Shown here: positions 978 to 25,957 of the stretch, piece after piece
Layout: each line of letters opens with the position of its first letter
How positions within the stretch are numbered: the stretch's first letter is position 1
Source: a bacterium
GTDB lineage: Bacteria; UBA8248; JACPRG01; G963555815
Length of the DNA: 64,000 nt
NCBI GenBank assembly: GCA_965218795.1
Contig: OZ244653.1
Span: 1,664,001-1,728,000 of the forward strand
Reading direction: 5' to 3'
Program-made: the position numbers and the translations under genes
The notes under the pieces: model-generated
The model's database searches: none
Told to the model about the DNA's origin: nothing
The model's input: the letters and a program-made list of their open reading frames with translations, nothing else

Positions 978-1712
978 ATGCCTCACACGTGGCGCAAGAC
1001 CGAAATCGGCATCCTTCAGTTCTTCGAGCGCCTGGGTCTCGATACCAGACGCATCTTTCTCTTCTGGAGCGTTGCCATCGGTGCGGTATGCGGGCTGGTC
1101 GCCGTCAGCTTCCACCTCCTGATTCGCGCGGTCACTGAGTTTCTCTTCGGCGCGCCCGATTTCGCGGGTGTCATCCGCACGCCCATGACCTCGGTTCTCA
1201 TCATTTTCGAGATGACGCAGGATTACCACATCATTTTGCCGCTCATGGTGGCGAATCTCGTCAGCCTGAGGCTTTCCACATGGCTGCACCCGAAGGGGGA
1301 CGTACGAAAGCCTCTCTCTTCAGGAAGGGGTCCATCTGCCCACGCACCGTACGCGCTACATCCTCGAGAACATCCACGTGGAGGACGCCATGGTGAGGGA
1401 GGTCATCAAGCTCGAGGACCATCAGACCGCCGAGGAGGCCACCAGAAAACGCCGATCAGGGAGCTCGGCATCAGAACATACGTCGCGCACGCCCATCCGG
1501 ACCACACCCTGGACGTTGTTCTCCACAAGCTGGGTTCGCGCGACATCTCCCGCCTGCCGGTCGTCAACCGGGTGAACCCGAAGGTCATCGAAGGCATCAT
1601 TACGGCGGAGGATGTCATGCACACGTTCGGCGTGCATCGGGATATCCACGAGGAAGGGGACGTGGACGAGCCCGTCAAGTCGCCCTGGCAACCTCCGGTT
1701 GCATCGCGTTAG
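978..1712 (+). pseudogene. ClC chloride channel + CBS domain gene with a large internal deletion and frameshift
   Basis: AIGAVCGLVAVSF joined directly to AGVIRTPMTSVLIIFEMTQDYHIILPLM. First CBS segment (VEDAMVREV, from 1378) is in another frame; second CBS (ISRLPVV..GIITAEDV) follows. C-terminus runs into a repeat. Confidence 0.75.
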
Positions 1713-1949
1713 GCACTCGCCTGCGGCGAGATGCCATGTGAATCGCAGCGGCGGGTCACCGTCCCCGCTCGCCAGCGTCCCGTTGCATCGCATGAGCGGC
1801 CCTGCGGGCCGCGAAAAGGCTGGGGCCATCCAAGCGAAGCGCAAGGATGGCGAGACCGCAGGGGCACGTTGCCCCTGCCGCGCCTCGGATGTTCAGGCGC
1901 GGCTAATGCGGTCCAGGTCGGAGACCTGGCGATGCAACCGGAGGTTGCC
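1686..1949. repeat. Two-hairpin intergenic repeat locus 1 (end of virion operon)
   Basis: Bounded by inverted GGCAACCTCCGGTTGCATCGC ... GCGATGCAACCGGAGGTTGCC, with internal modules shared with the other loci. Confidence 0.9.
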
Positions 1950-2199
1950 GATGGAGCTCTTCGAGCCTGCGGATCAGCTCCTCGTTGTGCAGCTCGATGG
2001 CCTGATTCATCAGGGCGATGCTGGTCCGCATCTCCCTCACGGTTTCCATCAGATCATCGAGCGCGGCGCGGACCGCCGGGTCCTGCTGGACCTTGACGCC
2101 GCCGTTCCGGTTCGAAAAAAACCGCAGCACGATCAGGCCGATGACAATCGCCCCGCCAGTGCCCGCTGAGGACAAAAGAACCCTGATCAGATCGTCCAT
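1903..2199 (-). CDS. Small single-TM coiled-coil protein, holin-like position
   Basis: N-terminal TM (GTGGAIVIGLIVLRFF) then coiled coil; last gene of the operon; C-terminus QPPVASP... is repeat-derived. Confidence 0.5.
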   Translation of the reverse strand: MDDLIRVLLSSAGTGGAIVIGLIVLRFFSNRNGGVKVQQDPAVRAALDDLMETVREMRTSIALMNQAIELHNEELIRRLEELHRQPPVASPGLRPGPH

Positions 2200-2200
2200 G

Positions 2201-2773
2201 TCAGACCCCCGGGGTCGGCCAGGCAAGGCCGGATGCGGCCGTTGCCGCGCCTGCGGCGTCCGCGGCCGCGTGAATCGCATCGATGGCGTCGAATTTCAGG
2301 CGCTCGATTTTCACGGCCGCGGCCTGCCAAGCCTCGGCTTTCGACCGCCACTCCCCGGCGATCGCTGCATTCGTGGCCGCGGCATCGCCGGCCGCCTGCC
2401 GCCGCGCGGCCTCATCCTGCAGCAGCGGACCCACCGCGGACTCGTCGGCAAGAAAGGCCTCGGCCTCGGACTTCTTGAGCATGTAGACGAGGGCCTGGCC
2501 CGAGCCGTCCGAGATCCACTCCAGCCGCGCGGCCTCGGCCTGCTCCTTCACCCGTGAGATCATCTCTGCTTTCAGAGCCTCCAGCGGCGGACCCGGCGGA
2601 CGCGCGAACGTTCCGCCGCCGCGCTCGTCGTAGAGATCCCCCGCATCAACCCCTTCCGGCGCGTCCACCCAGCGCAGGCCCGGAGCGACCGGGAAGGGTT
2701 CCCCGCCACCGGGCGGGACCTCCTCGACCTGAACCACCCGTCCGCCGTCCACGTCAATCAAGGCTTTTTTCAT
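2201..2773 (-). CDS. Putative tail fibre assembly protein
   Basis: 190 aa, coupled to the tail fibre gene; FPVAPGLRWVDAP N-terminus and helical Ala-rich C-terminus. Confidence 0.6.
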   Translation of the reverse strand: MKKALIDVDGGRVVQVEEVPPGGGEPFPVAPGLRWVDAPEGVDAGDLYDERGGGTFARPPGPPLEALKAEMISRVKEQAEAARLEWISDGSGQALVYMLKKSEAEAFLADESAVGPLLQDEAARRQAAGDAAATNAAIAGEWRSKAEAWQAAAVKIERLKFDAIDAIHAAADAAGAATAASGLAWPTPGV

Positions 2774-3639
2774 CAGTAATACTCCTCCACGATGACGATT
2801 CCCGGAGCTCCATTCCCTCCAGGACTCGAGCTGCTTGACCAGCCAGCCGATCCCCCTCCTCCATAGTTCTTGCCATCGCCTCCCTCGCGACCACCTGACC
2901 CTTCCAGATCTATAAAGCCGGAACCGCCACTCAGCTGGCTTTCTCCGCCGCGACTGCTTTGACCTCTGCCCGATCCGTCCCCGCCTCCAATCTGAACGTC
3001 CCCGCCCACTCCATTACCGCCGACTCCGGCCCTTGCAGTCCCGCCTGTCTGTATACCGCCGCCGCCCCCGGTCGCTGAACAGTGAGAGCCGAAGGAGCTC
3101 GTAAGACCGGTCTGAGCGTCTGATACGTTGCCGCCCGTACCGCCCGCTCCAACTGTCACGACCTCGGTCGATGCGAGGACGGACCCGCCGAACCGTCCCT
3201 CCGCATATCCGCCTCCGCCGCCAGGCGTCCCATTTGAGCCCTTAGAGCCGCCGCCGCCGCCACCGACGAGCCGGATCACGACGTATCCGTCGTTCCCCAT
3301 CCCCGCGGGCTTGGTCCAGGCCCCGCTGGAAGTGAAGGTCCGGATCCTTTTCAGACCGCCCCCGCCGCCGACTCTGGCCTTCGCGCCGGAGCTGTCCTTT
3401 GCGATCAGGCCCCCGGAAGAATCGACGAACAGCCGGCGATGGTCCGCCTCCGGGCTGTCCGGGTCCGACGCCTGCTCCTTGAAGTCCCAGGCGTTCGCTG
3501 AGCCGTCGTTGTTCCGGGCCTTCGTCCCGTCCGCGGCATCGACCTCCGGTCCGATGAACAGCCGGTTGAGTGTGTCGTTCTTGGTGGGGTGTCCGGCGCC
3601 CACCATCTCCTCTGTCGCCTGAATTCTTTGATCCGCCAT
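2773..3639 (-). CDS. Glycine-rich tail fibre-like protein
   Basis: TFTSSGAWTKP..VGGGGGG..GGGGGYAE..VTVGAGG..GAPGIVIVEEY glycine-rich domain; SD GGGGAGG before ATG 3639. Confidence 0.75.
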   Translation of the reverse strand: MADQRIQATEEMVGAGHPTKNDTLNRLFIGPEVDAADGTKARNNDGSANAWDFKEQASDPDSPEADHRRLFVDSSGGLIAKDSSGAKARVGGGGGLKRIRTFTSSGAWTKPAGMGNDGYVVIRLVGGGGGGSKGSNGTPGGGGGYAEGRFGGSVLASTEVVTVGAGGTGGNVSDAQTGLTSSFGSHCSATGGGGGIQTGGTARAGVGGNGVGGDVQIGGGDGSGRGQSSRGGESQLSGGSGFIDLEGSGGREGGDGKNYGGGGSAGWSSSSSPGGNGAPGIVIVEEYY

Positions 3640-3650
3640 GGATTCCTCCC

Positions 3651-4030
3651 CGGCAGGCTTTCGCCTGCACCGCATGGGCCGCCCTTGCGCTTCGCTGGGG
3701 CGGCAAAAACAAGGCGACCCAAAGGGTCGCGAAAGCGATCAACCCGGAGGGTTGCCCGGCCATCCAAGCGAAGGGACACAGGCCCAAGCGCAAGAATGGC
3801 GAGACCGTACCGGCAACCTCCCGCCAGGTCTCCGACCTGGACCGCATGAGCCGCGCCTGAACATCCGAGGCGCGGCAAAGGCAAGGCAGCCTCCGGTTGC
3901 ATCGCATTGGGCGCGCTTCGCGCGGCGAAAAGGCCGGGCCAGTACGGAGCCTGGCCCCTACGAAAAACAGACGTCTTTGCCGCCCAAGCGAAGCGCCAGG
4001 GCGGCCAAAGCGATGCAACGGGACGTTGCC
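3651..4030. repeat. Two-hairpin intergenic repeat locus 2
   Basis: Five core motifs, including GCAGGC-GAAA-GCCTGC, CAACCC-GGA-GGGTTG, CCAGGTC-GGA-GACCTGG and GCAACG-GGA-CGTTGC. Confidence 0.9.
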
Positions 4031-4031
4031 C

Positions 4032-5279
4032 CTATCCCATCAGGGTTTGCAAACGATCGTTCCCCGCCGTTCTGGACCCGTCCGAAATGCAGCTCCCGTC
4101 CGCGATGCAGGAGTCGGTGACATACAACCCGGTGTCCAGCAGCCGGAACCTGACCTCGCTCCGCTCCGAGACGAATTCCTTCGACAGAACGCGGCAGATC
4201 TGGTTGGCCAAGGGCCGCCGGCCGTCTCTTTCAAAAACAAAATCCAAAGAGAGGGAGACGTGATCTCCCCGCTCGACGTGCAGCAGGGTTTCAGTCTTCT
4301 GTTCGATCTCGAAAACCCGGGGGCCGTTCTTGAACAGGCTGACGATGACGTGCTGAACGGTCCGCAGCGTGGTGAGGTCGCGGATCCAGGGCATCTCGAA
4401 CAGGCCGCCGGTCCTGCCGAGGGCGCCGTGGACGCCCACGCTTTTCAGGTCCTGCTCGGCCGCGCCGTCATCGAAACCGAAGAACCCGCGGTCGAAGAAA
4501 TTGTAGCGGTAGCGAGCCCCTGGACGGTTGATGATGTCTTCGCGAAGCCGGGGACCGACCCGGGCCGCGCCCCGCTGGCGGGCCGTGATGAACCCCTGCA
4601 TGGTCTCTCCGAAGGGCAGCGATCCTGCGCCGGACAACCCGCTTTCCATCTGGAGGTAGACCTTCCGGTCCTTTCGCAGGAACCAGCCGCCCATGAAGTC
4701 CTTCATGACCTCCTGGATCAACCCGCCCGGGGTGACGTCTGCCGCCAGGACGCTCGCGGCCCTGTACCCGGCCGCCGCGGCCCGCTCCCTGGCGCTTTCC
4801 AGGGCCGAGGCGTCGAATATCTCCGAGGTTTCCCCCAGGCCCGCGACGTTGGCCAGGAAGTCCTCGACCACGGCGACGGGGTTCTCGATCAGCGACGCGC
4901 CGGCCGCCCGGCCCTTGCCCCGGGCCCGGACCGCCCCGTTGGGTTCCACCGTGAACGAGACCGCGGCGATAGCCCCCCGGCCCTCGAAGTCGCTGGACGC
5001 GCTGAAGGCGTATCCCGCCGGCGGGATCTCGCCGTCCTCGTCATAGAGGGTGACGCTGTTGCCGTCCGCCTCGGACAGCACGGGGTGTCCCGCGAAGGCG
5101 TAGACCCCGCCCTCCGGGGAGGCGTCGATCCGGGGCAGTTCCCATATTCCCCGGTCCCCGTCGGTCAGATCGCCGTAGACGACGGGCAGCGCGGCGTCCT
5201 CGTTTTCCGGGTTGGCGTACCGGCCCGCCCGGGGCAGGAGGAACACATCGTTCAACAGACTCGTATCGATCGCCGTCAC
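4032..5279 (-). CDS. Phage tail tip / baseplate hub-like protein
   Basis: GTG start after a repeat-borne SD; LPVVYGD and LIENP motifs; follows the tape measure gene. Confidence 0.65.
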   Translation of the reverse strand: MTAIDTSLLNDVFLLPRAGRYANPENEDAALPVVYGDLTDGDRGIWELPRIDASPEGGVYAFAGHPVLSEADGNSVTLYDEDGEIPPAGYAFSASSDFEGRGAIAAVSFTVEPNGAVRARGKGRAAGASLIENPVAVVEDFLANVAGLGETSEIFDASALESARERAAAAGYRAASVLAADVTPGGLIQEVMKDFMGGWFLRKDRKVYLQMESGLSGAGSLPFGETMQGFITARQRGAARVGPRLREDIINRPGARYRYNFFDRGFFGFDDGAAEQDLKSVGVHGALGRTGGLFEMPWIRDLTTLRTVQHVIVSLFKNGPRVFEIEQKTETLLHVERGDHVSLSLDFVFERDGRRPLANQICRVLSKEFVSERSEVRFRLLDTGLYVTDSCIADGSCISDGSRTAGNDRLQTLMG

Positions 5280-5280
5280 G

Positions 5281-5900
5281 GCAACCTCCCGTTGCATCGC
5301 ATTGGCCGCGCCTGAACATCCGAGGCGCGGCAAAAGACAAACCGGCACGATGCCAAGCCATCCAAGCGAAGGAACACAGGCCCAAGCGCAAGAATGGCGA
5401 GATCGTACCGGCAACCTCCCGTTGCATCGCATGAGCCGCGCCTGAACATCCGAGGCGCGGCAAAAGACAAACCAACACGATGCCCGGCCATCCAAGCGAA
5501 GGAACACAGGCCCAAGCGCAAGAATGGCGAGATCGTACCGGCAACCTCCCGCCAGGTCTCCGACCTGCACCGCATGGGCCGCGCCTGAACATCCGAGGCG
5601 CGGCAAAAGACAAACCAACACGATGCCCGGCCATCCAAGCGAAGGAACACAGGCCCAAGCGCAAGGATGGCGAGTGCGCACCGGCAACCTCCCGCCAGGT
5701 CTCCGACCTGCACCGCATGGGCCGCGTTGAGGGCTTTGCCCTGACGCGGCAGAGACCTCAAGGCCACGCCTGGCGGTCGTCGAATCGGGGCAACGCCTTG
5801 CCGGCGCGGCAGAGACAAGGGCGACGCGAGCCATAGCGCGAGCGTCGCGAAAGCGGTCCAGGCGAAAGCCTGGCGATGCAACGGGACGTTGCCGGTCCAG
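5281..5900. repeat. Two-hairpin repeat locus 3a: tandem array of 130, 130 and 143 bp units plus a partial unit
   Basis: Units start at 5281, 5411, 5541 and 5684 with GCAACCTCCCG. Confidence 0.95.
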
Positions 5901-6105
5901 CGGGACGCTGGCGGGCCTGTCCCCCGGATGTCGCAGGCGAGGGTCTGACGCATGGATTCGGGCAACGCGGGAACGGCCTGCGCGTGGGTGCGCCCCGGAC
6001 GTCTTAGCGGGGGGCTGGCCGTATGGATTCCCGCTGCAGCCTGTCCCCGAAGGCTTCTATCGGGGACAGAAATGACGAAACGACAGTCACGCAACCCCCC
6101 AACCG

Positions 6106-6159
6106 GTCATTCCCGCGGCCTGCCCTCGAATGCTTTAATCGGGGGAAGCGGGAATCCAG
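6106..6159. repeat. CGTC-type palindromic (REP-like) repeat
   Basis: GTCATTCCCGCG...GCGGGAATCCAG; related copies near 28.9, 29.2, 40.8, 45.2-45.5 and 58.7 kb. Confidence 0.7.
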
Positions 6160-6179
6160 TGTCATGTATCCGGCAGGGG

Positions 6180-6308
6180 CCTGCCGCCCCAAGGGCGGCC
6201 AATTGCGGTCCAGGCGAAAGCCTGGCGCGATCATAGCGCCCGGAACGTTGCCAGCTGGCGGCATCTCGCCGCAGGCGAGCGCCTGACGCGATGCAACGGG
6301 ACGTTGCC
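6180..6308. repeat. Two-hairpin repeat locus 3b overlapping the tape measure 3' end
   Basis: GCGGT-CCAGGCGAAAGCCTGG and GCGAT-GCAACGGGACGTTGCC. Confidence 0.9.
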
Positions 6309-8723
6309 GTAGCGCCGGCGCTGGAGCTTGCGGATCTCCGCCTCGATCTTCCGCGCAAAGCGCTTCATCTCATGCTCGCTCGACAGGACCGACCGGCTCA
6401 TGTCCACGTTCACGTGGATGTGGTTGGTGATCGTGTCGCCCCGGGGAGTCTCCTCCTCCCGCAGGCCGCGGTTCCGGGGCCCCAGCGGCTCCACGCGGAC
6501 CCGCTCGGGCCCGGCCTCGCCCGCGACGAACCCCGTCGCGCGGTTCACGATCCCGTTGAAGCCCCGCGCCGCGAGCAGGAAGGGGATATGCGGCGCGTAT
6601 CGATCGGCGTAGTCGCGGCCTTTGTAAAGCAGGGCATTGTACGTCGCCTGTTGGAAGATCCGGGCCAGACCCTGCGCGTCCTTCTTGCTTTCGCGCGCGA
6701 TATAATCCGCCTGATTCCCCTCGCCCGCGTTGCCCACCGCGTTGTGGATCCGCCGCGCGTGCATTGCGGTCTCGCGTTCGTCGAAGGCGCCGATCGCCCG
6801 GAAGAAGGCGTCCGCCTTGTCGCGGGCCACGTCCTCCAGCCGGTCCGAAAGGAACGTCCCGCGCTTCCCCCCGCCGAGCAACCCGCCCAAAAACCCCGAG
6901 AGCGGGCCGCCCGCGCCGCCGCCAATCAGGCCCCCCAATACCGTCCCCACGCCGGGGATCAGCGATCCCGCGATCCCGCCGCCGATCGCGCCGACCCCGG
7001 AGCCGATGGTCGAGGCCGTCCCGCTCGTCCCCGTCAATCCCGACAGCAGCTGGCCCGCGCCGAACCCCAGACCCGCCCCGCCCGCCAGCTGACCGAAACT
7101 GGAGCCGGTCCCCAGGAATCCCCCCTGGCCGAAGAAGCCCGAGGATGCGGAGACGCCGGTCAGCGACGGCGGAGCGAAGATCGAGACGCCCGCCGCGGCT
7201 CCCGCGCCGCCGCCGAACAGGTTCCCGGTCCCGGGGATCGACGGGAGGCTGAAGCCTCCTCCCCCGCCTGAGCCGACGCCCCCGAACCCCAGGCCGGGGA
7301 TGCCCACCGGCGTGTTGAACAGCGTCGCCAGGCCCGAGGCCGCCCAGGAGGTCACCATCTGCGCCACCACGTCCGCCCAGACGTTCACCATCCGCAGGCC
7401 CATGTTCTCGAACGACGCCCCGATGTTGTCGAGCCTGCCCGTCAGGAAGTCGAAGAACTCTTCCTGCAAGCCGCCCCGGAGCGCCCCGAACGTGGCCGTG
7501 GTGGCCTGGGAGGCGTTCAGGCCGAAGCTGGACATGTCCAGGTAGGCCCGCTGCGCGCCCGCGGAGATCCCCCCGAACAGCGCCTGGGAGCTCACGCCCA
7601 GGTCTTGCAGGGCTGAGCGCTGTTCGGCTGCGGATTGACGGGCGATCTCCGGAATCGCCTCGCCCGCGGACCTTTCGTAGAACCGCTCCAGCGCGCCGTA
7701 GGCGTCCTCGCCGGCCGCTTGCTGTTCCTCGTAGCCGAGCAGGGCCGCGCCGAGGGTTTCTTCGGTCGCGTCGATGAAGGGCGCGGCGAAATCCCGCTGG
7801 TACGCCTCGGAGGAACGCCGGATGAGGTTGCCGACCGAGTCGGTGTAGCCCATCCAGGCCCGCAGGCCGTCTTCCTGCAAGGAAGCTAGGGGTTTCACTG
7901 GCCCCGGAAACGATACCAAAGTTGGAGAATGGGGAAGTCCAAGGCTGGAGATTGGACCATTGTGATCCATCTTCAGGCCATCTGTTGATGGTCCTCCATT
8001 CAACCTACCTCTACCCGACACCGGTACAGGTTCGGACGCTTCAATTTCTTTTTCGAAGCAGAAGCATCTAACAAGCTTATCGAGCGATACATCAATATAT
8101 TCAAGCCGGAGATTTCTCGTTTGATTGGATATTTCTTCCTTTTTCAGAAATTCCAGAATCTGACCGATTTGAACATTTAGCTGTTGATTTTGGCTTTGCT
8201 GCACAAATCCGGTTTTGCCTAGTTTCCTAGTCTCTTGTGCAATGTCAACCCCTTTTTCAGCTATACCAATCATATCTTCAATAGGAGTTCTCGGATCCTT
8301 CTTACTCCTTTTTGGATCCCTTGGAAATTTTGTCTTAAACCGTTTAATCTGGGATAAAAGTTCGATCGTTTTGATGATAGAAGCTATGTTCTTGGAAGAC
8401 CAAAGATTCAACTCAAGGTATTCAATGATGAGTTCGGGAGGAACTATCGTAAAAGGAAAAGAGGGCAGCGCATTATTCGAACGCTTCAATGAGGAAATGG
8501 ATTTCATGATCGATTGATTGACTCTCTCTAATACCCCCTTTATTCCGCTTGCATAAGATTCCATGTTGGAACGCGCACCCTCGGCGAAAGCTTTGTGGGC
8601 CGCCGATGCGTTCCGAAGCGTTTTCTCGATTTCATTGTCGAATTGATGGATCGCGGGTGTCGCGTGGTCGTCCACTTTTAGTAGAAATTCAATGCTATTC
8701 GCCGTTTGGGACTTTCTCCTCAA
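6231..8723 (-). CDS. Tape measure protein
   Basis: 830 aa, helical, with a Gly-rich hydrophobic segment and the ARGFNGIVNRATGFVAGEAGPERV motif near the C-terminus; downstream of the tail chaperones. Confidence 0.8.
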   Translation of the reverse strand: MRRKSQTANSIEFLLKVDDHATPAIHQFDNEIEKTLRNASAAHKAFAEGARSNMESYASGIKGVLERVNQSIMKSISSLKRSNNALPSFPFTIVPPELIIEYLELNLWSSKNIASIIKTIELLSQIKRFKTKFPRDPKRSKKDPRTPIEDMIGIAEKGVDIAQETRKLGKTGFVQQSQNQQLNVQIGQILEFLKKEEISNQTRNLRLEYIDVSLDKLVRCFCFEKEIEASEPVPVSGRGRLNGGPSTDGLKMDHNGPISSLGLPHSPTLVSFPGPVKPLASLQEDGLRAWMGYTDSVGNLIRRSSEAYQRDFAAPFIDATEETLGAALLGYEEQQAAGEDAYGALERFYERSAGEAIPEIARQSAAEQRSALQDLGVSSQALFGGISAGAQRAYLDMSSFGLNASQATTATFGALRGGLQEEFFDFLTGRLDNIGASFENMGLRMVNVWADVVAQMVTSWAASGLATLFNTPVGIPGLGFGGVGSGGGGGFSLPSIPGTGNLFGGGAGAAAGVSIFAPPSLTGVSASSGFFGQGGFLGTGSSFGQLAGGAGLGFGAGQLLSGLTGTSGTASTIGSGVGAIGGGIAGSLIPGVGTVLGGLIGGGAGGPLSGFLGGLLGGGKRGTFLSDRLEDVARDKADAFFRAIGAFDERETAMHARRIHNAVGNAGEGNQADYIARESKKDAQGLARIFQQATYNALLYKGRDYADRYAPHIPFLLAARGFNGIVNRATGFVAGEAGPERVRVEPLGPRNRGLREEETPRGDTITNHIHVNVDMSRSVLSSEHEMKRFARKIEAEIRKLQRRRYGNVPLHRVRRSPAARCRQLATFRAL

Positions 8724-8918
8724 ATCAAGTCAGACATGCCCATTGGCCCCCCCGACATTGGAGCCAACGAAGGGTAAATAAGATTACCATATACGATGCT
8801 CTTTGAGATGGGAGACCAGGGCTAAAATCAGGATAGAAAAAGAGAGCCCGATCGATTGACTGTACCTAGTGAAAACCTGATATATTTTATGCGATAGAAT
8901 AAATCGCTCATGATAATT

Positions 8919-9846: not shown

Positions 9847-9847
9847 C

Positions 9848-10506: not shown

Positions 10507-10510
10507 TCTT

Positions 10511-15674: not shown

Positions 15675-15676
15675 GA

Positions 15677-17599: not shown

Positions 17600-17611
17600 T
17601 CCTGCCTCCTT

Positions 17612-18178: not shown

Positions 18179-18181
18179 TTT

Positions 18182-18233
18182 CCCTCACCCCTCACCCCTG
18201 ACCCTCACCCTGACCCTCTCCCACGGGGAGAGG
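18182..18233. repeat. BoxC-like repeat
   Basis: CCCTCACCCTGACCCTCTCCCACGGGGAGAGGG; similar copies at 19530-19572 and 25664-25728. Confidence 0.7.
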
Positions 18234-18242
18234 GAAACAGAG

Positions 18243-18728: not shown

Positions 18729-18791
18729 AGTGGAGGCTCCCGAGATGACTGCCGCCGGGCCGGGCGGCCCTGCGACGTTTGACGGCTCCGG

Positions 18792-19523: not shown

Positions 19524-19589
19524 GTTCGCTCCCTCACCCGGCCTTCGGCCACCCTCTCCCAGGAGGAGAGGGAATTCTTGGTCGCCCGG

Positions 19590-19763
19590 AGGCAACGCGC
19601 CTCCGCGTCCTCGCCAGGTCTCCGACCTGGACCGCATTGGCAACCTCCGGTTGCATCGCGTTAGGCACTCGCCTGCGGCGAGATGCCACCAGCCGACAAC
19701 GTGCCGGGGCGATATGGCCGCGTCTGACAATCCGAGGCGCGGCAAAATCGCCATAGCGCGTCG
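19590..19763. repeat. Two-hairpin intergenic repeat locus 8
   Basis: CCAGGTCTCCGACCTGGACCGCATT and GCAACCTCCGGTTGCATCGCGTTAGGCACTCGCCTGCGGCGAG. Confidence 0.9.
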
Positions 19764-20045
19764 CTATTCGTACCAAACCACGTATTCATTGCCGCCTGAA
19801 TCGATCCCGGCGAACAGGCCGTCCGCGAAGGAGACGCCCGCGGGGAACGTGATATCCGAGAGAGCGCCGGCGGCCGCCGAGATCTCGGCGATTTTCTTGC
19901 CGGCCGCATCCGCGCCGTCATACAGGACGAGGGTGGCCGTATCGTCGCCCCCCTTGAGCTGGGCGCCCCAAAGGGCGCCCGAGGTCGATTTGATGGAAGC
20001 GTCCGCCGTTTTGGCGCCGCTGCTGGTGGCAAGGTTGTATGGCAT
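19764..20045 (-). CDS. Small virion protein (decoration-like)
   Basis: 93 aa, beta-rich, ATLVLYDG, GVSFADGLF; its SD comes from the repeat. Confidence 0.6.
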   Translation of the reverse strand: MPYNLATSSGAKTADASIKSTSGALWGAQLKGGDDTATLVLYDGADAAGKKIAEISAAAGALSDITFPAGVSFADGLFAGIDSGGNEYVVWYE

Positions 20046-20047
20046 AA

Positions 20048-20205
20048 GGCAACCTCCCGTTGCATCGCATTGGGCACTCGCCTGCGGCGAGATGCCATGT
20101 GAATCGTAGCGGCGGGTCACCGTCCCCGCCCGCCCCACAAAAAAGCCGGAGTATCTTGCCCCTGCCGCCCAACGGAACCGTCAGGGCGGCGAAATGCCCG
20201 TGGCG
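20048..20205. repeat. Two-hairpin intergenic repeat locus 9
   Basis: GCAACCTCCCGTTGCATCGCATTGGGCACTCGCCTGCGGCGAGATGCC; the first ~80 bp are nearly identical to locus 1. Confidence 0.9.
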
Positions 20206-20213
20206 GCTCACCA

Positions 20214-22307
20214 CTACGCGACGACGGATTTGTACATGCCGCGGTGGTCCAGAACGTCGCCGCCGTAGACGTGCCGGATCTTGTACGTGATGACGTCGGA
20301 GTCGAAGACGCTGCCGACGCTGGGCGCATCCTGAACGAACAACTCGGGATCTTCCCGCCCCTCGAAGAAGCCGATCTCGACGGTCGGGCAGAGGGCCGGG
20401 TCGCAGACGACCGTCCAGTCGCCCGCGTCCGTCCAGTAATCGACGACGATGACTTCCATGCTTTGATACAGGTTCGGCGTCGTCGCGTTCTCGCCTGTGT
20501 TGACGTACGCGGAGGAGGTCGCCAGCCGCCAGGCCAGGTGCTCGAGCTCGTTGGGGACGAGAAGAAACCTGGGCACGATGCCCAGGATTTCGGTCGCCGC
20601 CCCGAAGGCCGCCTGAGAGCGCATGGCCGTGCGGGCCGCGTCCAGTTCCGCGCTGGACAGCGCGCTCGACCCCAGATTGTTGTGGTTGGCGTGGAACAGC
20701 GCCGTGCTGTCGTAATCCAGGGTGGGGTTGTCCTCGATGAAATCAAAGGCGAACCGGTACAGCGTAATGGCGGCGGCCCGGCCCAGCCGCATCGGGATCC
20801 GGCGAATCGCCCCCACGTCGTCATTGGCGATCATCTCGATGGTGAGGTCGTCGGTTCCGCCGCGCTTGGTGGCCGCGTAGGTGACCTCCTCATCGCCCGG
20901 GGAGGTGAGGGCCTGGTACGTCCCGCGCTCCGCGACCGCCGGCAGTACGCCGTAGCCGCCCATCCGCATCCTGCGCTGGGTCCGGAAGTCCGACACCGAC
21001 GTGATATCGCTGACGATCTTTCGCCAGTCGGTCAGCCCGGGGAGGTTGTATTCCGCAATCATCCGGCGGGTGATGGAATCCCCCAGGATCTCCGCCCAGC
21101 CGGAGGTCGACAGCGATTCCCGTATCTTCCGCAGGGCCGCCTCCCTGAGACGGGGGCTGGAGCCGGTTCGCTCGCTCATGTGGTGGGGGTAGGTTTCCTG
21201 GAGGATCTGATAGGCATCGCCCCAGTCGCCCGTCACCTTGCGGTAGGCTTCACGGAAGGACCGGAACCGCGACACCCCGTCGATGTCCCGGCCCGCAAAG
21301 AATCCGTCCAGGGCGGAGCCGAGCTTGTCGCGCGGGTCGTCGCCCGCCTCGATGCCCAACCCGAGCCCCCGGACGTGGCCGCTCTGTTCCACGGCGGCCC
21401 AGACCTTGCGGTCCTCGGCGATTCGAGCGACGAGTTCCGGGGTCTCGAATACCCGGGAATCGAAATCGCGCCGGATGGCCGACTGGACGGGCTGGGGAAG
21501 TCCGCTCGCAGGGAGGCGGCTCTCCAGAACCGCCTGGCACCCGGCCAGACGGGCCTCATGAACGCGGGCTTCCGGGGAAGAACCTGGATCCCCCTGGGGC
21601 GAAGCATCGGCCCGGTCTTCCTCCGGCCATTTGACCGCGATCGCCTGCTCGATCTCTCCAAGCAGATGTTCTTCCGTCGCCTCCTCGGAAACGGAACGGT
21701 TCGGGTCCACCTTTTCAAGCAAAGCCAGCAATCTTTCCTTCATCGTCTCCTCCTCCTGATTCACCGCGGCCGGCCGGTCCGCCGCCACCAGCCGCAAGAC
21801 TGCGCCTCCCGCGGCCGGGTCGGTCACCATGTCCACGGAAAACACCTTGACAATCTCCTTCACCTCGATGACCTCACCTTCCGCCGTTCGGCGGGGCTCA
21901 CACTGCGCCAGGGCGTCGATGGAAAAGCCCACGATGTCGCGCTTGCCCCGCTCCCACGCGTCTATCAGGAGCTCGCGAAGGCGTCCCGCGGCCGGGGAAA
22001 GCTTGAACAGGGCGCGGATACCCCCGCCCTCGAACCTGGGGGCCTCGAACCACCCCACGATGTCCTCGACGCTTCGTTCGGGGCGCTCCTGTATCTCCAT
22101 TCGGGTCGCGTGGTCGGCGAAGGCCTTGACGCCCTCGAAGAGGGGGGCGGCACGGCGCAGGGCATCCTCGGGGTAGAGGTTTCCGTTGGCTGAAAGACCC
22201 GATTCGATGAGGACGACCTCCCACTCGAGACCCTCGCGCCCCTTGACCCGTTCCAGGAGCCTGGCCGTTTCCCGTATCCGTCTGCGGGGCGGGGCCGGTT
22301 GCTTCAT
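20214..22307 (-). CDS. Prohead protease - major capsid protein fusion (Mu gpT-like capsid)
   Basis: N-terminal GLSANGNLY..FADH..GFSI..SVDMVTDPAAGG protease; C-terminal capsid with DFRTQ, IANDD, PRFLLVP, YKIRHVYG. Confidence 0.85.
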   Translation of the reverse strand: MKQPAPPRRRIRETARLLERVKGREGLEWEVVLIESGLSANGNLYPEDALRRAAPLFEGVKAFADHATRMEIQERPERSVEDIVGWFEAPRFEGGGIRALFKLSPAAGRLRELLIDAWERGKRDIVGFSIDALAQCEPRRTAEGEVIEVKEIVKVFSVDMVTDPAAGGAVLRLVAADRPAAVNQEEETMKERLLALLEKVDPNRSVSEEATEEHLLGEIEQAIAVKWPEEDRADASPQGDPGSSPEARVHEARLAGCQAVLESRLPASGLPQPVQSAIRRDFDSRVFETPELVARIAEDRKVWAAVEQSGHVRGLGLGIEAGDDPRDKLGSALDGFFAGRDIDGVSRFRSFREAYRKVTGDWGDAYQILQETYPHHMSERTGSSPRLREAALRKIRESLSTSGWAEILGDSITRRMIAEYNLPGLTDWRKIVSDITSVSDFRTQRRMRMGGYGVLPAVAERGTYQALTSPGDEEVTYAATKRGGTDDLTIEMIANDDVGAIRRIPMRLGRAAAITLYRFAFDFIEDNPTLDYDSTALFHANHNNLGSSALSSAELDAARTAMRSQAAFGAATEILGIVPRFLLVPNELEHLAWRLATSSAYVNTGENATTPNLYQSMEVIVVDYWTDAGDWTVVCDPALCPTVEIGFFEGREDPELFVQDAPSVGSVFDSDVITYKIRHVYGGDVLDHRGMYKSVVA

Positions 22308-22735
22308 GGCGCCTCCTTTTCGGTTTGTCCGGCGTCCATTTCGATGACCACCCGGTCCCCGGATTCGGGGACGAGGACGATTCGTCCGCGACCGTGGTTG
22401 TAGTGCGTCAGGAGTTGCTCCGCCTTCATGCCGTTTTTGCGCAACGCCTCCGCGAGACCTTCATCATCCGGGCCCCCGATACGGGGCGTTGACGGATTGG
22501 GGGCCCGGCTTTCGGGCCGGACGCGCTTCAGCTCGGTTTCCAGCTCCCGGACCCGTGCGCTGAGCCGCTCGTTTTCGGCGAGGACGACTTTCAGGTCAGG
22601 CTGCGATTTTGAAAACTGGGATGTCGCGCGTTTTCTCGAGGAAGAAGAAAGATGTTTTTTCTGACTCCTCCCAAGCGTCTCTTTCTTCCCTGCTCGGGCC
22701 GCGGGGCTGGCCCGCTTCCGTTTCGGCTCCGGCAT
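22304..22735 (-). CDS. Hypothetical phage protein (basic N-terminus, coiled coil)
   Basis: AAAGGAG SD; ATGA overlap with the capsid gene. Confidence 0.55.
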   Translation of the reverse strand: MPEPKRKRASPAARAGKKETLGRSQKKHLSSSSRKRATSQFSKSQPDLKVVLAENERLSARVRELETELKRVRPESRAPNPSTPRIGGPDDEGLAEALRKNGMKAEQLLTHYNHGRGRIVLVPESGDRVVIEMDAGQTEKEAP

Positions 22736-22762
22736 TGCGGTCTCCTTTCGGCCTCCGGACAC

Positions 22763-22796
22763 AAAAAGACCCCGCCGGGTTTTCGCCCGACGGGGT
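22763..22796 (-). terminator. Intrinsic terminator inside the virion operon
   Basis: CCCCGTCGGG-CGAAAA-CCCGGCGGGG followed by TCTTTTTG. Confidence 0.65.
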
Positions 22797-22864
22797 TGTG
22801 AATTCCATCTAATTGATTTTCTTAGGGACCGTCTGATTTCACAAAATGATGCAAAGGTGTAGTT

Positions 22865-23854
22865 CTATTTTCTTCTCCGTTTTTTTGGATTCCGTCCCAT
22901 TTTCTTCGGACTGTTCTCAACGCCCATAGGTTCTATATGAGCGACGCTAAACTGTCCTCTTCCAACATGATTCTCAATGATCTTAAAGGTTGTAGATTGT
23001 TCAAAGGTTATTCGACCTGCATGAAAAACAGAAAGAATGGCTTCCTGCAAGTCTTGATCATCCTCAAAATGCGTGATTTTGAGGCCACATGCCTCAAATT
23101 TTCGTCTCGAAAGCATTCTTCCATGCGACAGGCTTTTGCTGTGATCCAAAAGGTCATCAACGATTTTTTTGGCTCTTTCCCGTGCGTCTGCTTCATCAGC
23201 TAAATGATATTTCTCAGCCCACTTTCTCACTAGCTCCTCAGCTAATGCTGTTGAGTTTGCGCAAGTTGTCAACAATGCCGGACCATATTGCGGAAGAATC
23301 GGTGCCCAGGATGTGTAATTTCTGCTGTCTTGGTGAAGCTCGCGCTTCGCAAGTTCAAATTGATCGAGGATGGCCTGGGCTGGCAACATCCTCCTTCCTA
23401 ATGGTGTATCCAACAAAACTTGAGGATCTATGGGTCCAAGGAATGAATGTTTACCCATCAGAATTTCATTCCCACTCAGTGCGAGCATGGTGCCAGCCGA
23501 CATCGCGGCGTGAGGAATAAAGAAACGAATATGATCAAATTTCTCTCTGAGGTAGGTCACTATAGATTCGGTCGCCTCTGGACTCCCGCCCGGAGTATGG
23601 AGAATTATGTCAAGTTCTGATCCTTTGAGACCGTGGATGGCCGCCATAAACCCCTGAATATCAGCTACGTCAATCATTAACGAGCTGCCTTCCGGCGACG
23701 GTAGAGGCCACCTGCTCAAGTACTGGATTGTGTTCCTGTTGGTGACCTCGAATAGCTGGTTTAGATACTTTCGGCGGACAATGTCTCGTCCTTGAGTCCC
23801 GTGCCTTGCGACAGCATCCTTTATTTCGTTTAGGATTTCGTTCCAAGAGCCCAT
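22865..23854 (-). CDS. SDH-family ClpP-fold (S49-like) serine protease, low-GC moron
   Basis: LDIILHTPGG, AMSAGTMLALSG, SFLGPIDPQ, SHGR. Confidence 0.85.
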   Translation of the reverse strand: MGSWNEILNEIKDAVARHGTQGRDIVRRKYLNQLFEVTNRNTIQYLSRWPLPSPEGSSLMIDVADIQGFMAAIHGLKGSELDIILHTPGGSPEATESIVTYLREKFDHIRFFIPHAAMSAGTMLALSGNEILMGKHSFLGPIDPQVLLDTPLGRRMLPAQAILDQFELAKRELHQDSRNYTSWAPILPQYGPALLTTCANSTALAEELVRKWAEKYHLADEADARERAKKIVDDLLDHSKSLSHGRMLSRRKFEACGLKITHFEDDQDLQEAILSVFHAGRITFEQSTTFKIIENHVGRGQFSVAHIEPMGVENSPKKMGRNPKKRRRK

Positions 23855-23863
23855 TCATTCACA

Positions 23864-24073
23864 CTAAAGCGCTGTTCCATTGGATAAAGAGAGCTTTGGT
23901 TCTACCCTGGTCATCGCTGTCAATTTAGCTGCCTCGCGGTTCTCAGCCTGACACATTTCGACCAATTCCATCACTTCGGCCACACCGGGCTCTTGAAGGG
24001 CTTTCTTGAGCAGTTTTTGCTGCTCCTTTTGAAGCTCCTCCGCCTGTCTCCTTTTTGAGGCTTTCTTTTCCAT
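23864..24073 (-). CDS. Small protein coupled to the SDH protease
   Basis: 69 aa, PGVAEVMELVE; GGAGG upstream. Confidence 0.55.
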   Translation of the reverse strand: MEKKASKRRQAEELQKEQQKLLKKALQEPGVAEVMELVEMCQAENREAAKLTAMTRVEPKLSLSNGTAL

Positions 24074-24218
24074 TGACGCACCCTCCGCACTGGATGTGCA
24101 AGACAGTCAATCAATACTTGCCTTTCGAGAGCATATTAGCTACTCGTCAGCTAACCTGCAACTTGCTTGCCAGAACATTTTACGGCTCAGACACGTTTAA
24201 GGCTATTTCATTCCTGTT

Positions 24219-25568
24219 TCACAGCCCGATCTCCCCCAGCAGCAGGGTCGCGCCTTGGGCGGCGGTCTCGCGGTCGATGTAGCCCATCTCTTCGGCCTTG
24301 GCGAGGGCGTGGACCCCTCGATCGAGGGATTCAGTGGCGCGGTTCAGATCCCGGCCGGCCGGCTCGGGGAGGGTGACGGAGAAGTCGTGCAGGACACGGT
24401 TGACCCGATCCGGGTCGCTTGCCGTCAGCTCCGGCGAGACCGAGGCCCGCATCTCCGGATTGAACGTCCACCATTGGTCCAGGACGAACCGGAAGACCCT
24501 CTCGATCATGTGCGCGACGAAACGCTGGCGGGACTTGATCCGCTTGATGATGGGATCCGCCATCTCCGCCGCCGTGGCGCGGTTCACGTCCTCGCCGCGG
24601 CCGAAGAAGTGCTCGGCGAACCCCGCGCCTCCGATGATGTGGCCGCGGAACTCCCGGGCCGCCCGGCTGTTGTCCTGATGGTCCAGGTTCGGCGTGACGG
24701 CCTGTAGATTCTCGTGGCGGTTGTGGGCGTAAACGGCGCCCGGCCTGAGATCCTTGAGCATGGCCGCCTTCTCGCGCAGCTTTTTGGCGTCCGCTCCATC
24801 CACCGTGAGATCGAAGATGAACCGCTTGGCCAGAACCGTCCGCTCCATGTCGTCGAAGAGGAACTGGTCGTAGGCGTCCAGAAAGTCGGCCAGGGCCATC
24901 AGATCGGGCGTCCCGCGCGCGGCGGTGCTCGTCTTGTTGACGGCGAAGTAAAAGCAATCGCCCACGAGCCGCCCAAACGAGGGGCTGACGGGCTTTTCAT
25001 CCGGCAGGATAACCGCCAGGGTTCTGGCTTCCATCCGCTCGCGGCCCTTTCGGACGACGGCCGCCGTGATGCGGGCGTTTCCGGGGTCCGTCTTCACCTG
25101 GGCGATCTTCTCCGCGTCCAGGACGCCCAGGCGCACATGCCCGTCCGCCCGGTTCACGAAGACGGGCAGGCAGAGCTCTCCGAAAAGCCCCAGGTCGCGG
25201 ACAAGGGCGTGCTGGTGGATGTCCCATGCGTTCACCCAATCGTTCCAGTGATTGTCGAGGACACGTTGCAGGAGGGGTTGAGCATGGGCGTACGTGATCC
25301 CCTTGCCGATCACCCAGTCTTTCAGGTCCTCCGTGAGACGGAAGGCCAAGGGGTTGGTCTTGTAGAGGATATAGGCCGTTCGAATGGCGCGGTCCTGCCG
25401 GTCGGGCGAGAGGTCGCGGTCGCCGCTTCCCGTCAACGAGCGAAAGAGATGATCATCCGCGTCCACGCCCTCTCCCAGGGGAAGCGCCTCGTTGACCCTC
25501 CGAAGAATTCCGGGACGGGTCAAAGCCCAGTTCACACTCTTCCGCTTCCAGCGATCGATCAAACTCAT
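24219..25568 (-). CDS. Phage portal protein
   Basis: LYKTNPLAFRL, LFGELCLPV, RGTPDL, NRATAAEM; follows terL. Confidence 0.8.
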   Translation of the reverse strand: MSLIDRWKRKSVNWALTRPGILRRVNEALPLGEGVDADDHLFRSLTGSGDRDLSPDRQDRAIRTAYILYKTNPLAFRLTEDLKDWVIGKGITYAHAQPLLQRVLDNHWNDWVNAWDIHQHALVRDLGLFGELCLPVFVNRADGHVRLGVLDAEKIAQVKTDPGNARITAAVVRKGRERMEARTLAVILPDEKPVSPSFGRLVGDCFYFAVNKTSTAARGTPDLMALADFLDAYDQFLFDDMERTVLAKRFIFDLTVDGADAKKLREKAAMLKDLRPGAVYAHNRHENLQAVTPNLDHQDNSRAAREFRGHIIGGAGFAEHFFGRGEDVNRATAAEMADPIIKRIKSRQRFVAHMIERVFRFVLDQWWTFNPEMRASVSPELTASDPDRVNRVLHDFSVTLPEPAGRDLNRATESLDRGVHALAKAEEMGYIDRETAAQGATLLLGEIGL

Positions 25569-25825
25569 TTCGATTCCTCTGTCGGCGCTGTGGCCGCCGT
25601 TTGGATGGTTCGGGCGCAGGCCCAGGTCGAAGGAACATCCCTCACCGGGTCGGCGAGACAAGCCCCCCACCGCATCAGCCTTCGCCTCACGGCTCGGCTT
25701 CTGCGACTCCCCCTCAAGGGGGGAGTGATTGGATCGGGGATTGGACAGTCGAAGATGCCCGGCCCATGCCCCGCCCGTGCACGCGCCTTGCATGGTGTCG
25801 TCGGCCCACAACCTGCCTGTCACCC

Positions 25826-25957
25826 CGGCAGGCTTTCGCCTGCACCGCATGAGCCACCCTGGCGCTTGGGACTGTGTCCCTTCGCTTGGATGGCTCGGCC
25901 TTTCGCGACGCCAGCGTCAGCGCCAGCGTCGCCAATGCGATGCAACGGGACGTTGCC
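25826..25957. repeat. Two-hairpin repeat locus 10 overlapping the terL 3' end
   Basis: GCAGGCTTTCGCCTGCACCGCAT ... AATGCGATGCAACGGGACGTTGCC. Confidence 0.9.

What the first reader, a model, noticed from the sequence alone, without database searches (positions are those of the whole stretch)
1686..25957. Covarying two-hairpin element family confined to the junctions of a virion operon
Seen: about 40 copies (by eye) of a core unit at 10 loci. The unit is hairpin A, a 9-nt linker NNAWGCGRT, then hairpin B. Hairpin B keeps its pairing while its sequence changes: GCAACG-GGA-CGTTGC, GCAACC-GGA-GGTTGC, CAACCC-GGA-GGGTTG, CCAGGTC-GGA-GACCTGG, CCAGGC-GAAA-GCCTGG, GCAGGC-GAAA-GCCTGC. Hairpin A is also interchangeable (GCCGCGCCT..AGGCGCGGC, CTCGCC-GCA-GGCGAG, GCCGCCC..GGGCGGC, GCCGCGTCAGGG..CCCTCAACGCGGC). 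Most loci are bracketed by two outward-facing copies. I saw none between 26 and 64 kb, whereas ordinary CGTC-type repeats occur throughout the window. Inference: a structure-selected ssDNA/RNA element tied to this particle locus (recombination/cassette site, processing or antitermination signal, or REPIN-like unit with a trans-acting nuclease). It does not resemble the REP, attC or ribozyme classes I know.
Basis: partly seen in the sequence, partly recalled or inferred. Interest (0 to 1): 0.92.

Follow-up and report, generated by a model that had tools for sequence, protein, structure and literature searches.

The report
Palindromic repeats filling a prophage operon
About forty copies of a small two-hairpin DNA repeat, built like the selfish REP repeats of bacteria, sit almost only in the gaps between the genes of one phage-derived particle operon; the location is unusual, but the element is probably not a new kind.

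Summary
Window 1688-25956 carries 38 complete two-hairpin units (29 distinct) plus partial ones, in 10 gene junctions of a minus-strand tailed-phage head-tail operon. Both hairpins keep pairing while their sequences change: 94.7% of cells are paired against 74.4% in shuffles, and 10 of 13 pairs change on both sides.

The family is not spread over the genome. A covariance model puts 35 of 39 hits in this 24-kb span, which is 0.47% of 5.17 Mb. It finds one marginal hit in 50 relatives.

My reading is a lineage-specific REP/BIME-like family amplified locally by insertion at gene ends, exchange between junctions and tandem duplication. Grounds:
- outward-facing pairs with unlike partners;
- nearly identical 130-nt tandem arrays;
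- both orientations relative to transcription;
- interleaving with modules that also flank a RAYT gene;
- a few copies beside ordinary chromosomal genes;
- no such element in the homologous operon of a sister genus.

The units now supply stop codons and ribosome-binding sites, and probably act as mRNA stabiliser/attenuator hairpins. A dedicated regulatory or recombination role is not excluded. No RNA data were available. I rate it a new variant of a known kind, of moderate interest.

The parts
1686..1949 (.). J1: junction between the chromosomal CLC/CBS gene (978-1712, +) and the last operon gene g98 (1903-2199, -). Units at 1688-1735(-), 1772-1811(-) and 1877-1929(+), plus a chained hairpin B at 1930-1948(+). 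Both flanking genes end inside a unit.
3640..4031 (.). J2: fiber288 start | g415 stop. Units at 3653-3704(-), 3714-3754(+), 3824-3876(-), 3886-3924(-) and 3979-4029(+). Also holds a REP-type module with a four-letter tag, about 3932-3962.
5280..6310 (.). J3: g415 start | 3' end of TMP830. Units at 5281-5331(-), 5411-5461(-), 5552-5604(-), 5695-5750(-), 5821-5873(+) and 6260-6307(+). Chained B at 5873-5892 and a partial unit at 6183-6225. Tandem 130/143-nt copies at 5293-5708. A genome-wide repeat family lies at 6022-6179. The TMP830 ORF runs 77 nt past the end of the outer unit at 6260-6307, so that unit lies inside it.
12708..12955 (.). J5: g117 start | g169 stop. Units at 12710-12749(-), 12791-12838(-) and 12903-12955(+), and a unit without hairpin A at 12840-12874(-). 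REP-type module at about 12757-12785.
13466..14153 (.). J6: g169 start | g506 stop. Five tandem 130-nt copies at 98-100% identity (13487-14154), each an inverted pair of unlike units: minus-strand units at 13503, 13633, 13763, 13893 and 14023, plus-strand units at 13581, 13711, 13841, 13971 and 14101.
15675..16181 (.). J7: g506 start | tube347 stop. Units at 15689-15740(-), 15786-15835(-), 15988-16042(-), 16041-16094(-) and 16141-16181(+).
15944..15965 (-). Intrinsic-terminator-like hairpin (9 pairs) followed by a T run on the mRNA strand, inside J7 after the tube-like gene. Not one of the units.
17600..17737 (.). J8: g125 start | g146 stop. One unit at 17686-17737(+), ending 0 nt from the stop codon. 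Present with a 2-nt insertion in strains X5 and X6.
19524..19763 (.). J9a: g243 start | g93 stop. Overlapping units at 19614-19654(-) and 19640-19687(-), and a hairpin-A-like palindrome at 19717-19747 without linker or hairpin B.
20046..20213 (.). J9b: g93 start | capsid stop. Unit at 20049-20096(-), 3 nt from the start codon. Hairpin-A-like palindrome at 20164-20190. An 87-nt block is 94% identical to J1 (1687-1773).
25569..25957 (.). J10: portal start | 3' end of the terminase gene. Units at 25828-25896(-) and 25905-25956(+). The terminase stop codon lies inside the second unit. A genome-wide repeat lies at 25702-25732.
1903..27554 (-). Host operon: tailed-phage head-tail module. Terminase 25917-27554, portal 24219-25568, SDH-type protease 22865-23854, protease-capsid fusion 20214-22307, neck 18243-18728, tube-like 16182-17225, tape-measure-like 6231-8723, Gly-rich fibre 2773-3639, and unnamed genes.

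Best explanation
The units are a lineage-specific family of REP/BIME-like palindromic repeats. Each has a conserved 7-nt tag flanked by two interchangeable GC-rich hairpins.

The family exists at very low copy number elsewhere in the chromosome. It has been amplified inside the non-overlapping gene junctions of a resident phage-derived head-tail operon, which is either a cryptic prophage or a GTA-like locus.

The inferred steps of growth, none observed directly, are:
- insertion at or just after stop codons;
- copying of multi-module blocks between junctions by recombination or gene conversion;
- tandem duplication.

Only hairpin-forming, non-disruptive inserts survive inside an operon. This explains why they sit exactly between a stop codon and the next ribosome-binding site.

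As by-products they now encode the last residues and stop codons of four genes and carry the Shine-Dalgarno sequence of at least three. In the polycistronic mRNA they most likely behave as REPs do in E. coli operons: hairpins that protect the upstream cistron and attenuate read-through. That last point is inferred, not shown.
For: 1. REP-like design.
- Hairpin B has a 5-7 bp stem and a 3-5 nt loop, and lies beside a conserved tag.
- Outward-facing inverted pairs of unlike partners bracket 7 of 10 junctions.
- There are five 130-nt tandem copies at 98-100% identity and three to four 130/143-nt copies.
- Papers describe the same for REP dimers and clusters (PMC3733652, passages) and for tandem REPIN arrays of over 700 bp (PMC3116915, passages).

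2. Both orientations occur relative to a one-strand operon: 24 units on minus, 14 on plus.

3. The junctions are mosaics with other repeats. Two modules in them (about 3932-3962 and 12757-12785; 15905-15925) also lie beside a RAYT-like gene at genome 3378733-3379194 (likeness judged by eye). Two genome-wide families with 24-42 copies elsewhere sit in J3 and J10.

4. Related units lie outside phage DNA. Two are at genome 803130-803208, at the 3' end of a metallo-beta-lactamase-fold gene. Five variant copies lie in repeat-rich intergenic regions.

5. The amplification is recent and lineage-specific.
- 50 relatives gave 0 hits except one marginal.
- The homologous operon in G002 has junctions of 5-31 nt for five gene pairs and no repeats. 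G021 and G011 have none either.
- In G003 three homologous junctions carry a different repeat that also lies beside ordinary genes.

6. Blocks of 70-90 nt are shared between distant junctions at 84-94% identity (J1/J9b, J2/J7, J2/J5). Gene order differs from G002 and G003 by a swap of two blocks whose breakpoints lie in J7, J5 and J3.

7. Placement. The outer unit ends 0-2 nt from the upstream stop codon in 5 junctions. Four genes end inside a unit. The start codon lies 1-14 nt from hairpin B in 5 junctions.

8. REP clusters inside operons act as stabiliser plus partial terminator (bioRxiv 10.64898/2026.03.23.713779, abstract only).
Against: - The family is confined to 0.47% of the genome, whereas REP families are dispersed. 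No cis-limited amplification mechanism is demonstrated.
- The conserved tag is neither of the two four-letter tags that define the described REP super-families.
- The RAYT flanks hold no unit.
- A zero-nucleotide gap to the stop codon in four junctions is more precise than random insertion into a short spacer would give. It could mean target choice or selection for function.
- In strains X5 and X6 the listed indels in J7 and J8 fall in loops, runs and spacers rather than stems. This was judged by eye, which fits constraint on the hairpins.
- No RNA or transposition data exist for this organism here.
Confidence: 0.55

Rival explanations
1. The units are a dedicated cis-regulatory signal of the particle operon, read as RNA or DNA and recognised by a host or locus-encoded factor. 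It would set the relative expression of the cistrons through processing, stabilisation, antitermination or translation initiation, much like the start-associated sequences or stoperators of mycobacteriophages.
For: - Near-exclusive confinement to the operon.
- Placement exactly at gene boundaries, 0-2 nt after stops and 1-14 nt before starts, with the Shine-Dalgarno sequence in the loop and 3' arm of hairpin B at three genes.
- Pairing kept through changes on both sides.
- Phage-specific repeats at gene starts that are absent from the host genome are on record: PMC3203893 (passages) and PMC4351075 (passages).
Against: - Units lie in both orientations.
- None were found in 50 relatives, nor in homologous operons of G002, G021 and G011.
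- Nearly identical tandem arrays look like recent amplification.
- Copies lie beside ordinary genes.
- Single mismatches show no bias towards wobble pairs on the mRNA strand: 1 against 4 on the other strand among 15 distinct cases. The number is too small to decide.
- No RNA-binding or regulator candidate was found in the locus.
Confidence: 0.2
2. The units are non-autonomous mobile elements (MITE or REPIN type) moved in trans by a transposase encoded elsewhere, for example one of the two RAYT-like HUH enzymes. The outward-facing units would be the terminal inverted repeats.
For: - Inverted terminal units are present.
- Insertion into the 3' ends of four genes.
- Two Y1-transposase-family genes in the genome.
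- Junctions share modules with one RAYT flank.
- A few dispersed copies exist.
Against: - A trans-acting enzyme should spread copies over the genome, yet 35 of 39 model hits lie in 24 kb.
- No unit lies in either RAYT flank.
- No target-site duplication was seen by eye at the junction ends.
- Partners of a pair are mostly unlike, so no single long hairpin forms.
Confidence: 0.15
3. The units are recombination sites that let tail and head genes be shuffled or exchanged as cassettes.
For: - Two gene blocks are swapped relative to G002 and G003, with breakpoints in J7, J5 and J3.
- Contigs of strains X5 and X6 join 19738 to 20186. This points to a different module make-up or a deletion at J9.
- Units bracket single genes or small blocks.
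Against: - None of the 38 integrase-family matches in the genome lies in the window, and no recombinase was found in the locus.
- The gene-content differences actually seen are not bounded by units: the protease region 22796-24225, absent in X5 and X6, and the low-GC insert at 8.7-12.3 kb.
- Ordinary homologous recombination between repeats explains the swap.
Confidence: 0.05

Closest known systems
REP elements and their dimers and clusters (BIME-like mosaics), as described in PMC3733652 (passages read). The name BIME is recalled.
   Same: - Short GC-rich palindromes beside a conserved short tag.
- Inverted pairs, often of unlike partners, 20-100 bp apart.
- Clusters in which dimers are repeated in tandem with flanking DNA.
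- Interleaving with other repeat families.
- Some copies overlap ORF ends.
   Different: - The tag is a 7-nt word, not either of the two four-letter tags.
- The tag is flanked by a palindrome on both sides.
- Copies are not dispersed; they are piled into one 24-kb phage-derived operon.
- There is no link to a RAYT gene.
REPINs and tandem REPIN clusters (PMC3116915, passages read)
   Same: Inverted doublets act as the repeated entity. Ordered tandem arrays of nearly identical doublets, flanks included, reach about 700 bp. J6 here is 5 x 130 nt.
   Different: The partners of a doublet are unlike, so one long hairpin is not formed. There is no cluster beside a RAYT and no genome-wide population.
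Phage-specific short repeats: start-associated and extended start-associated sequences of Cluster K (PMC3203893) and the 17-bp palindrome of Cluster O mycobacteriophages (PMC4351075)
   Same: Tens of copies are confined to phage DNA and (nearly) absent from the host chromosome. They sit at gene junctions, some contain the ribosome-binding site, and their function is unknown.
   Different: Those motifs have a conserved sequence, mostly one orientation (Cluster K), are shared by related phages, and show no compensatory pairing. Here the sequence varies while pairing is kept, both orientations occur, and relatives lack it.
RNase III processing hairpins between genes of phage T7, and the two-hairpin put antiterminator RNA of HK022 (both recalled, not tested)
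   Same: They are structured elements placed between cistrons of a phage transcript.
   Different: Those are strand-specific, few in number and conserved among relatives. No processing or antitermination data exist here.

Membership tests
REP (tagged palindromic repeats, PMC3733652) | Short GC-rich palindrome with a 5-13 bp stem and a 2-20 nt loop | tested here: met
   Hairpin B has 5-7 pairs and a 3-5 nt loop, and 32 of 38 copies are perfect. Hairpin A has 5-13 pairs.
REP (tagged palindromic repeats, PMC3733652) | One end carries the tag GTAG or CGTC | tested here: not met
   The conserved flank is the 7-nt linker of the finding (alignments). Only a different module of the junctions (about 3932-3962 and 12757-12785) has a GTAG-type end (by eye).
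REP (tagged palindromic repeats, PMC3733652) | Many copies dispersed through extragenic space | tested here: not met
   35 of 39 model hits lie in 0.47% of the genome. Type scans agree.
REP (tagged palindromic repeats, PMC3733652) | Inverted dimers and tandemly reiterated clusters | tested here: met
REPIN/RAYT system (PMC3116915) | Two inverted like REPs that fold into one long hairpin | tested here: inconclusive
   Outward-facing pairs occur in 7 of 10 junctions, but the partners mostly differ in both hairpins. Predicted folds are dominated by local hairpins.
REPIN/RAYT system (PMC3116915) | The family flanks a RAYT (Y1 transposase) gene | tested here: not met
   Two Y1_Tnp matches exist. Their flanks hold other modules, and no model hit lies there.
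MITE | Terminal inverted repeats with a target-site duplication | tested here: inconclusive
   Inverted terminal units are present. No consistent direct duplication was seen at the junction ends by eye. No formal search was made.
Integron attC / gene cassettes | Integron-type tyrosine recombinase next to the array | tested here: not met
   None of the 38 Phage_integrase-family matches in the genome lies in the window.
Integron attC / gene cassettes | Conserved core sites at both ends of each site | not tested
   The consensus is only recalled, so it was not typed or searched.
Any Rfam family | Match at the family's gathering score | tested here: not met
   0 matches in the 64-kb window on both strands.
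Start-associated sequences of Cluster K phages (PMC3203893) | Asymmetric conserved motif 3-7 bp before start codons, in one orientation, shared by related phages | tested here: not met
   Units occur in both orientations. They were not found in relatives. Only 5 of 10 junctions have hairpin B within 14 nt of a start.

The most novel reading that the evidence does not exclude
The two-hairpin unit is a rapidly evolving, operon-specific structured signal read on its own sense strand. A still unnamed protein of the locus or host would recognise it and either coordinate processing and translation of the particle genes or direct exchange of head and tail gene blocks. The parallel presence of a different repeat in the same junctions of a sister genus would then reflect co-evolving signal-reader pairs rather than passive colonisation.
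Probability: 0.15. Interest if true: 0.75.

Novelty: new variant of a known kind. Interest (0 to 1): 0.4.

Why it matters
REP-type repeats are usually described as dispersed residents of the core chromosome. Here a REP-like family has its whole expansion inside one phage-derived operon. It fills every non-overlapping junction and has become part of the genes' stop codons and ribosome-binding sites.

If the amplification is passive, the locus gives a compact natural record of three things:
- how such repeats grow locally;
- how they reshape gene order;
- how they are co-opted into coding and translation signals.

If it is functional, it would be a new way of tuning the expression of a particle operon. 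In either case the locus offers 38 natural variants of one structure for testing what REP-like hairpins do inside an operon.

Tried and rejected
- **Rfam** at gathering thresholds on the whole window gave nothing.
- **Exact degenerate patterns** of two unit types gave 0 stretches in viral contigs. In metagenome contigs one pattern gave 5 stretches, all single chance matches in coding or low-GC DNA, with no other module.
- **A loose gapped pattern** in 10 relatives gave counts at the level of its reversed control.
- **The search for related loci** with the capsid returned only distant prophages in other phyla and gave no help on the repeats.
- **RNA evidence:** no RNA holder was listed, so RNA ends could not be mapped.
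- **Logan contigs** of four DNA runs break at the repeats. Most of the listed joints have short sides (20-52 nt) and look like repeat-induced joins. I use only the presence of J7 and J8 in X5 and X6, the small indels, the 19738-20186 joint and the contig that bridges 22796-24225.
- **Wobble-pair bias** as a test of which strand folds is inconclusive. Among 15 distinct one-mismatch hairpins, 4 are wobble on plus and 1 on minus.
- **RNAalifold on the MAFFT alignment** recovered only 4 pairs, because hairpins of unequal length were misaligned. The model-fitted alignment replaced it.
- **Flank synteny with G002:** none found.
- **Candidate partner proteins:** Pfam and PHROGs gave no nuclease, recombinase or RNA-binding hit for any of the locus ORFs tested.
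Supplementary files were not asked for. The supplementary figures of PMC3116915 and PMC3733652 on cluster structure may bear on the comparison.
- **Limits of the model searches:** The genome search scored only 150 (own genome) or 119 (per relative) first-look candidates and used stricter filters above 40 genomes. Absence therefore means 'not found with this search'.

Full report
**The locus.** The window is G000:C1:1664001-1728000 of a single-contig genome of 5.17 Mb and 60.5% G+C. From about 1.9 to 27.6 kb all genes lie on the minus strand and form a tailed-phage head-tail module:
- large terminase 25917-27554
- portal 24219-25568
- SDH/ClpP-type protease 22865-23854
- a 697-aa protease-capsid fusion 20214-22307
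- neck protein 18243-18728
- tube-like protein 16182-17225
- tape-measure-like protein 6231-8723
- glycine-rich fibre 2773-3639
- small unnamed genes

The left flank is a chromosomal CLC/CBS gene. Further right, at 34-36 kb, lie ordinary metabolic genes, and at 44-56 kb a repressor and restriction-modification island. None of the 38 integrase-family matches of the genome lies in the window, and no paralogue of the structural genes exists elsewhere in the genome. The locus is therefore a stand-alone structural module, either a cryptic prophage remnant or a GTA-like element. A homologue of the capsid fusion is present in 29 of 41 genomes searched, this one included.

**The observation.** A curated scan finds 38 complete units, 29 of them distinct, between 1688 and 25956. 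Each unit is a hairpin A, 0-4 nt, the 7-nt linker named in the finding, and a hairpin B. Partial copies add a handful more. They occupy 10 junctions. Where neighbouring genes overlap or lie 63-64 nt apart there are none, and there are none in the two junctions around the extra protease gene.

Hairpin B occurs as 13 strings in five stem types. 32 of 38 copies are perfectly paired, and re-dealing the 3' arms reached the observed pairing in 1 of 10000 trials. I built a covariance model from 15 units and aligned its 35 best window hits. On that alignment 94.7% of cells pair, against 74.4% in shuffles (0 of 500) and 29-38% with slid partners, and 10 of 13 pairs show changes on both sides. That alignment is fitted to the structure, which favours it. 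The independent count agrees. Some variants are single-step intermediates or hybrids between types and carry mismatches.

**Distribution.**
- Type-specific scans put 17 of 18, 12 of 12 and 6 of 6 hairpin-B copies, and all copies of three hairpin-A types, inside the window.
- The model finds 39 genome hits at E<=1. 35 lie in the 24.3-kb span, one strong hit lies at 803156-803208, and three are weak.
- With filters off, the 51 best window hits all lie in 1688-25956.
- A few variant units with another hairpin A and other loops lie at genome 100.8, 1576.2, 1576.4, 2399.4 and 5139.3 kb, in repeat-rich intergenic DNA.

**Anatomy relative to genes**.
- In every junction that has both orientations, the outermost units face outward with hairpin B outermost.
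- The unit next to the upstream gene ends 0 nt (four junctions) or 2 nt (one) from its stop codon.
- Four genes (CLC/CBS, g98, the tape-measure-like gene and the terminase) run into a unit and take their last residues and stop codon from it.
- At five junctions the start codon lies 1-14 nt beyond hairpin B. At three of these the Shine-Dalgarno purine run lies in the loop and 3' arm of a hairpin-B variant with one stem pair opened.
- J6 is five 130-nt copies at 98-100% identity, each an inverted pair of unlike units. J3 holds three to four 130/143-nt copies.
- Blocks of 70-90 nt are shared at 84-94% identity between junctions up to 18 kb apart.
- J7 also holds a good intrinsic terminator on the mRNA strand after the tube-like gene. 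Several other modules are hairpins followed by T-rich tails.

**Company they keep.** The junctions are mosaics. Two genome-wide repeat families with 24-42 copies elsewhere lie in J3, J10 and the low-GC insert. Two further modules of J2, J5 and J7 also lie beside a RAYT-like gene at 3378733-3379194 (the likeness was judged by eye). The second RAYT-like gene, at 795090-795656, has its own tagged palindromes. No two-hairpin unit lies beside either. The strong outside copy sits at the 3' end of a metallo-beta-lactamase-fold gene, next to a short-chain dehydrogenase gene. This is ordinary chromosomal DNA.

**Relatives.**
- The model found nothing in 50 genomes of the same class except one marginal hit at E 0.006.
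- In G002 the homologous operon is intact. Five gene pairs are 5-31 nt apart by alignment bounds, and no repeat family is present.
- G021 and G011 have none either.
- In G003 the assembly breaks around the operon, and three homologous junctions (after the capsid gene, tape measure|g506, g415|fibre) hold a different repeat. That repeat also lies beside an isochorismatase, an aminotransferase and a peptidase gene, so it is a host repeat.
- Gene order in G002 and G003 is tube, chaperone-like gene and tape measure, then g506 and g169. Here the two blocks are swapped, with breakpoints in J7, J5 and J3.

**Other strains.** No RNA run was listed. Contigs of DNA runs from three studies hold the locus.
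- Strains X5 and X6 keep J7 and J8 with small indels. By eye these fall in loops, homopolymer runs and spacers.
- One contig in each of X5 and X6 joins 19738 to 20186.
- One 4.2-kb contig bridges 22796-24225. The extra protease gene is therefore absent in X6, and X5 shows next to no depth there.

**Interpretation.** Several features match what is described for REP dimers, clusters and tandem REPIN arrays:
- the design;
- the unlike inverted pairs;
- the tandem arrays;
- the mixing with RAYT-linked modules;
- the two orientations;
- the few copies beside ordinary genes;
- the absence of the family from relatives.

I therefore read the family as a REP/BIME-like repeat that has been amplified locally in a long-resident phage-derived operon. 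The operon's junctions also collect host repeats in a sister genus.

It fails three membership tests for REP/REPIN proper: the tag, dispersal, and a RAYT flank. So I file it as working like a REP cluster, not as a member of a described family. The likely present effect is hairpins that protect upstream cistrons and damp read-through, as shown for a REP cluster in an E. coli operon (abstract only). This is inference.

Three things remain unexplained:
- why amplification stayed inside 24 kb;
- why the outer hairpin so often touches the stop codon;
- whether the strand that reads hairpin A, linker, hairpin B is the active one. Two hairpin-A variants have wobble pairs on that strand, which is too few to decide.

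A dedicated regulatory or recombination role keeps about one chance in five to one in four.

**Literature.** Phage-confined short repeats at gene junctions are in print for Cluster K and Cluster O mycobacteriophages (passages). Searches for intergenic palindromic repeats in prophage structural operons and for REP sequences in phage genomes returned nothing that describes a REP-like family confined to a prophage operon. Those searches were read as listings only, so this is not proof that none exists.

Noticed in passing
window 8700-12350: Low-GC insert (45-53% G+C against about 66% around it) between g117 and the tape-measure-like gene. It holds four to five ORFs without Pfam or PHROG hits and all seven sigma-70-like promoter matches of the region. 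The 5' part of the tape-measure-like gene shares the low G+C.
   Followed up: partly
window 22796-24225: The SDH/ClpP-type protease gene and its low-GC flanks are absent in strain X6, where a 4.2-kb contig bridges the gap. Strain X5 has next to no depth there. G002 has no homologue. The capsid fusion has its own N-terminal protease-like part.
   Followed up: partly
window 6022-6179, 11543-11833, 25702-25732: Two or more genome-wide repeat families, with 14-mers present 16-42 times elsewhere in the genome, lie in J3, in the low-GC insert and in J10.
   Followed up: partly
genome 100940-101060 and ten other places (802.8, 1065.7, 1156.4, 1576.6, 1958.4, 3680.8, 3976.5, 4157.2, 4339.6, 5139.7 kb): A low-GC repeat of about 90 nt that looks like a long hairpin followed by a T run. 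Five of the eleven copies lie 150-400 nt from an outside copy of the two-hairpin unit.
   Followed up: partly
genome 3378733-3379194(-) and 795090-795656(-): Two RAYT-like (Y1 transposase family) genes, each flanked by its own palindromic repeats.
   Followed up: partly
window 20214-22307 and loci L002-L010: The 697-aa protease-capsid fusion has one homologue in 28 of 40 relatives (17 of 18 species of one genus) at 40-78% identity. This raises the question whether the module is a vertically kept GTA-like element.
   Followed up: no
window 4032-17225 against L011/L012 (G002) and L022 (G003): Two adjacent gene blocks (chaperone-like gene plus tape measure, and g506 plus g169) are in swapped order relative to two sister genera. 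The tape-measure-like protein has no match in G002 and only 29% identity over 126 residues in G003.
   Followed up: partly
L002 2570-2621, L022 1185-1320, L049 198-289 (G003): In a sister genus three junctions of the homologous operon carry a different repeat, plus a tagged palindrome right after a stop codon. The assembly breaks there.
   Followed up: partly
window 44187-55459: Defence-type island: an S24/HTH repressor, an M78/HTH protein, a 1054-aa N6/N4 methylase protein and a 1025-aa ResIII helicase protein. It also holds duplicated 76-119-nt segments (38774/40860, 45830/47547, 50535/51363).
   Followed up: no
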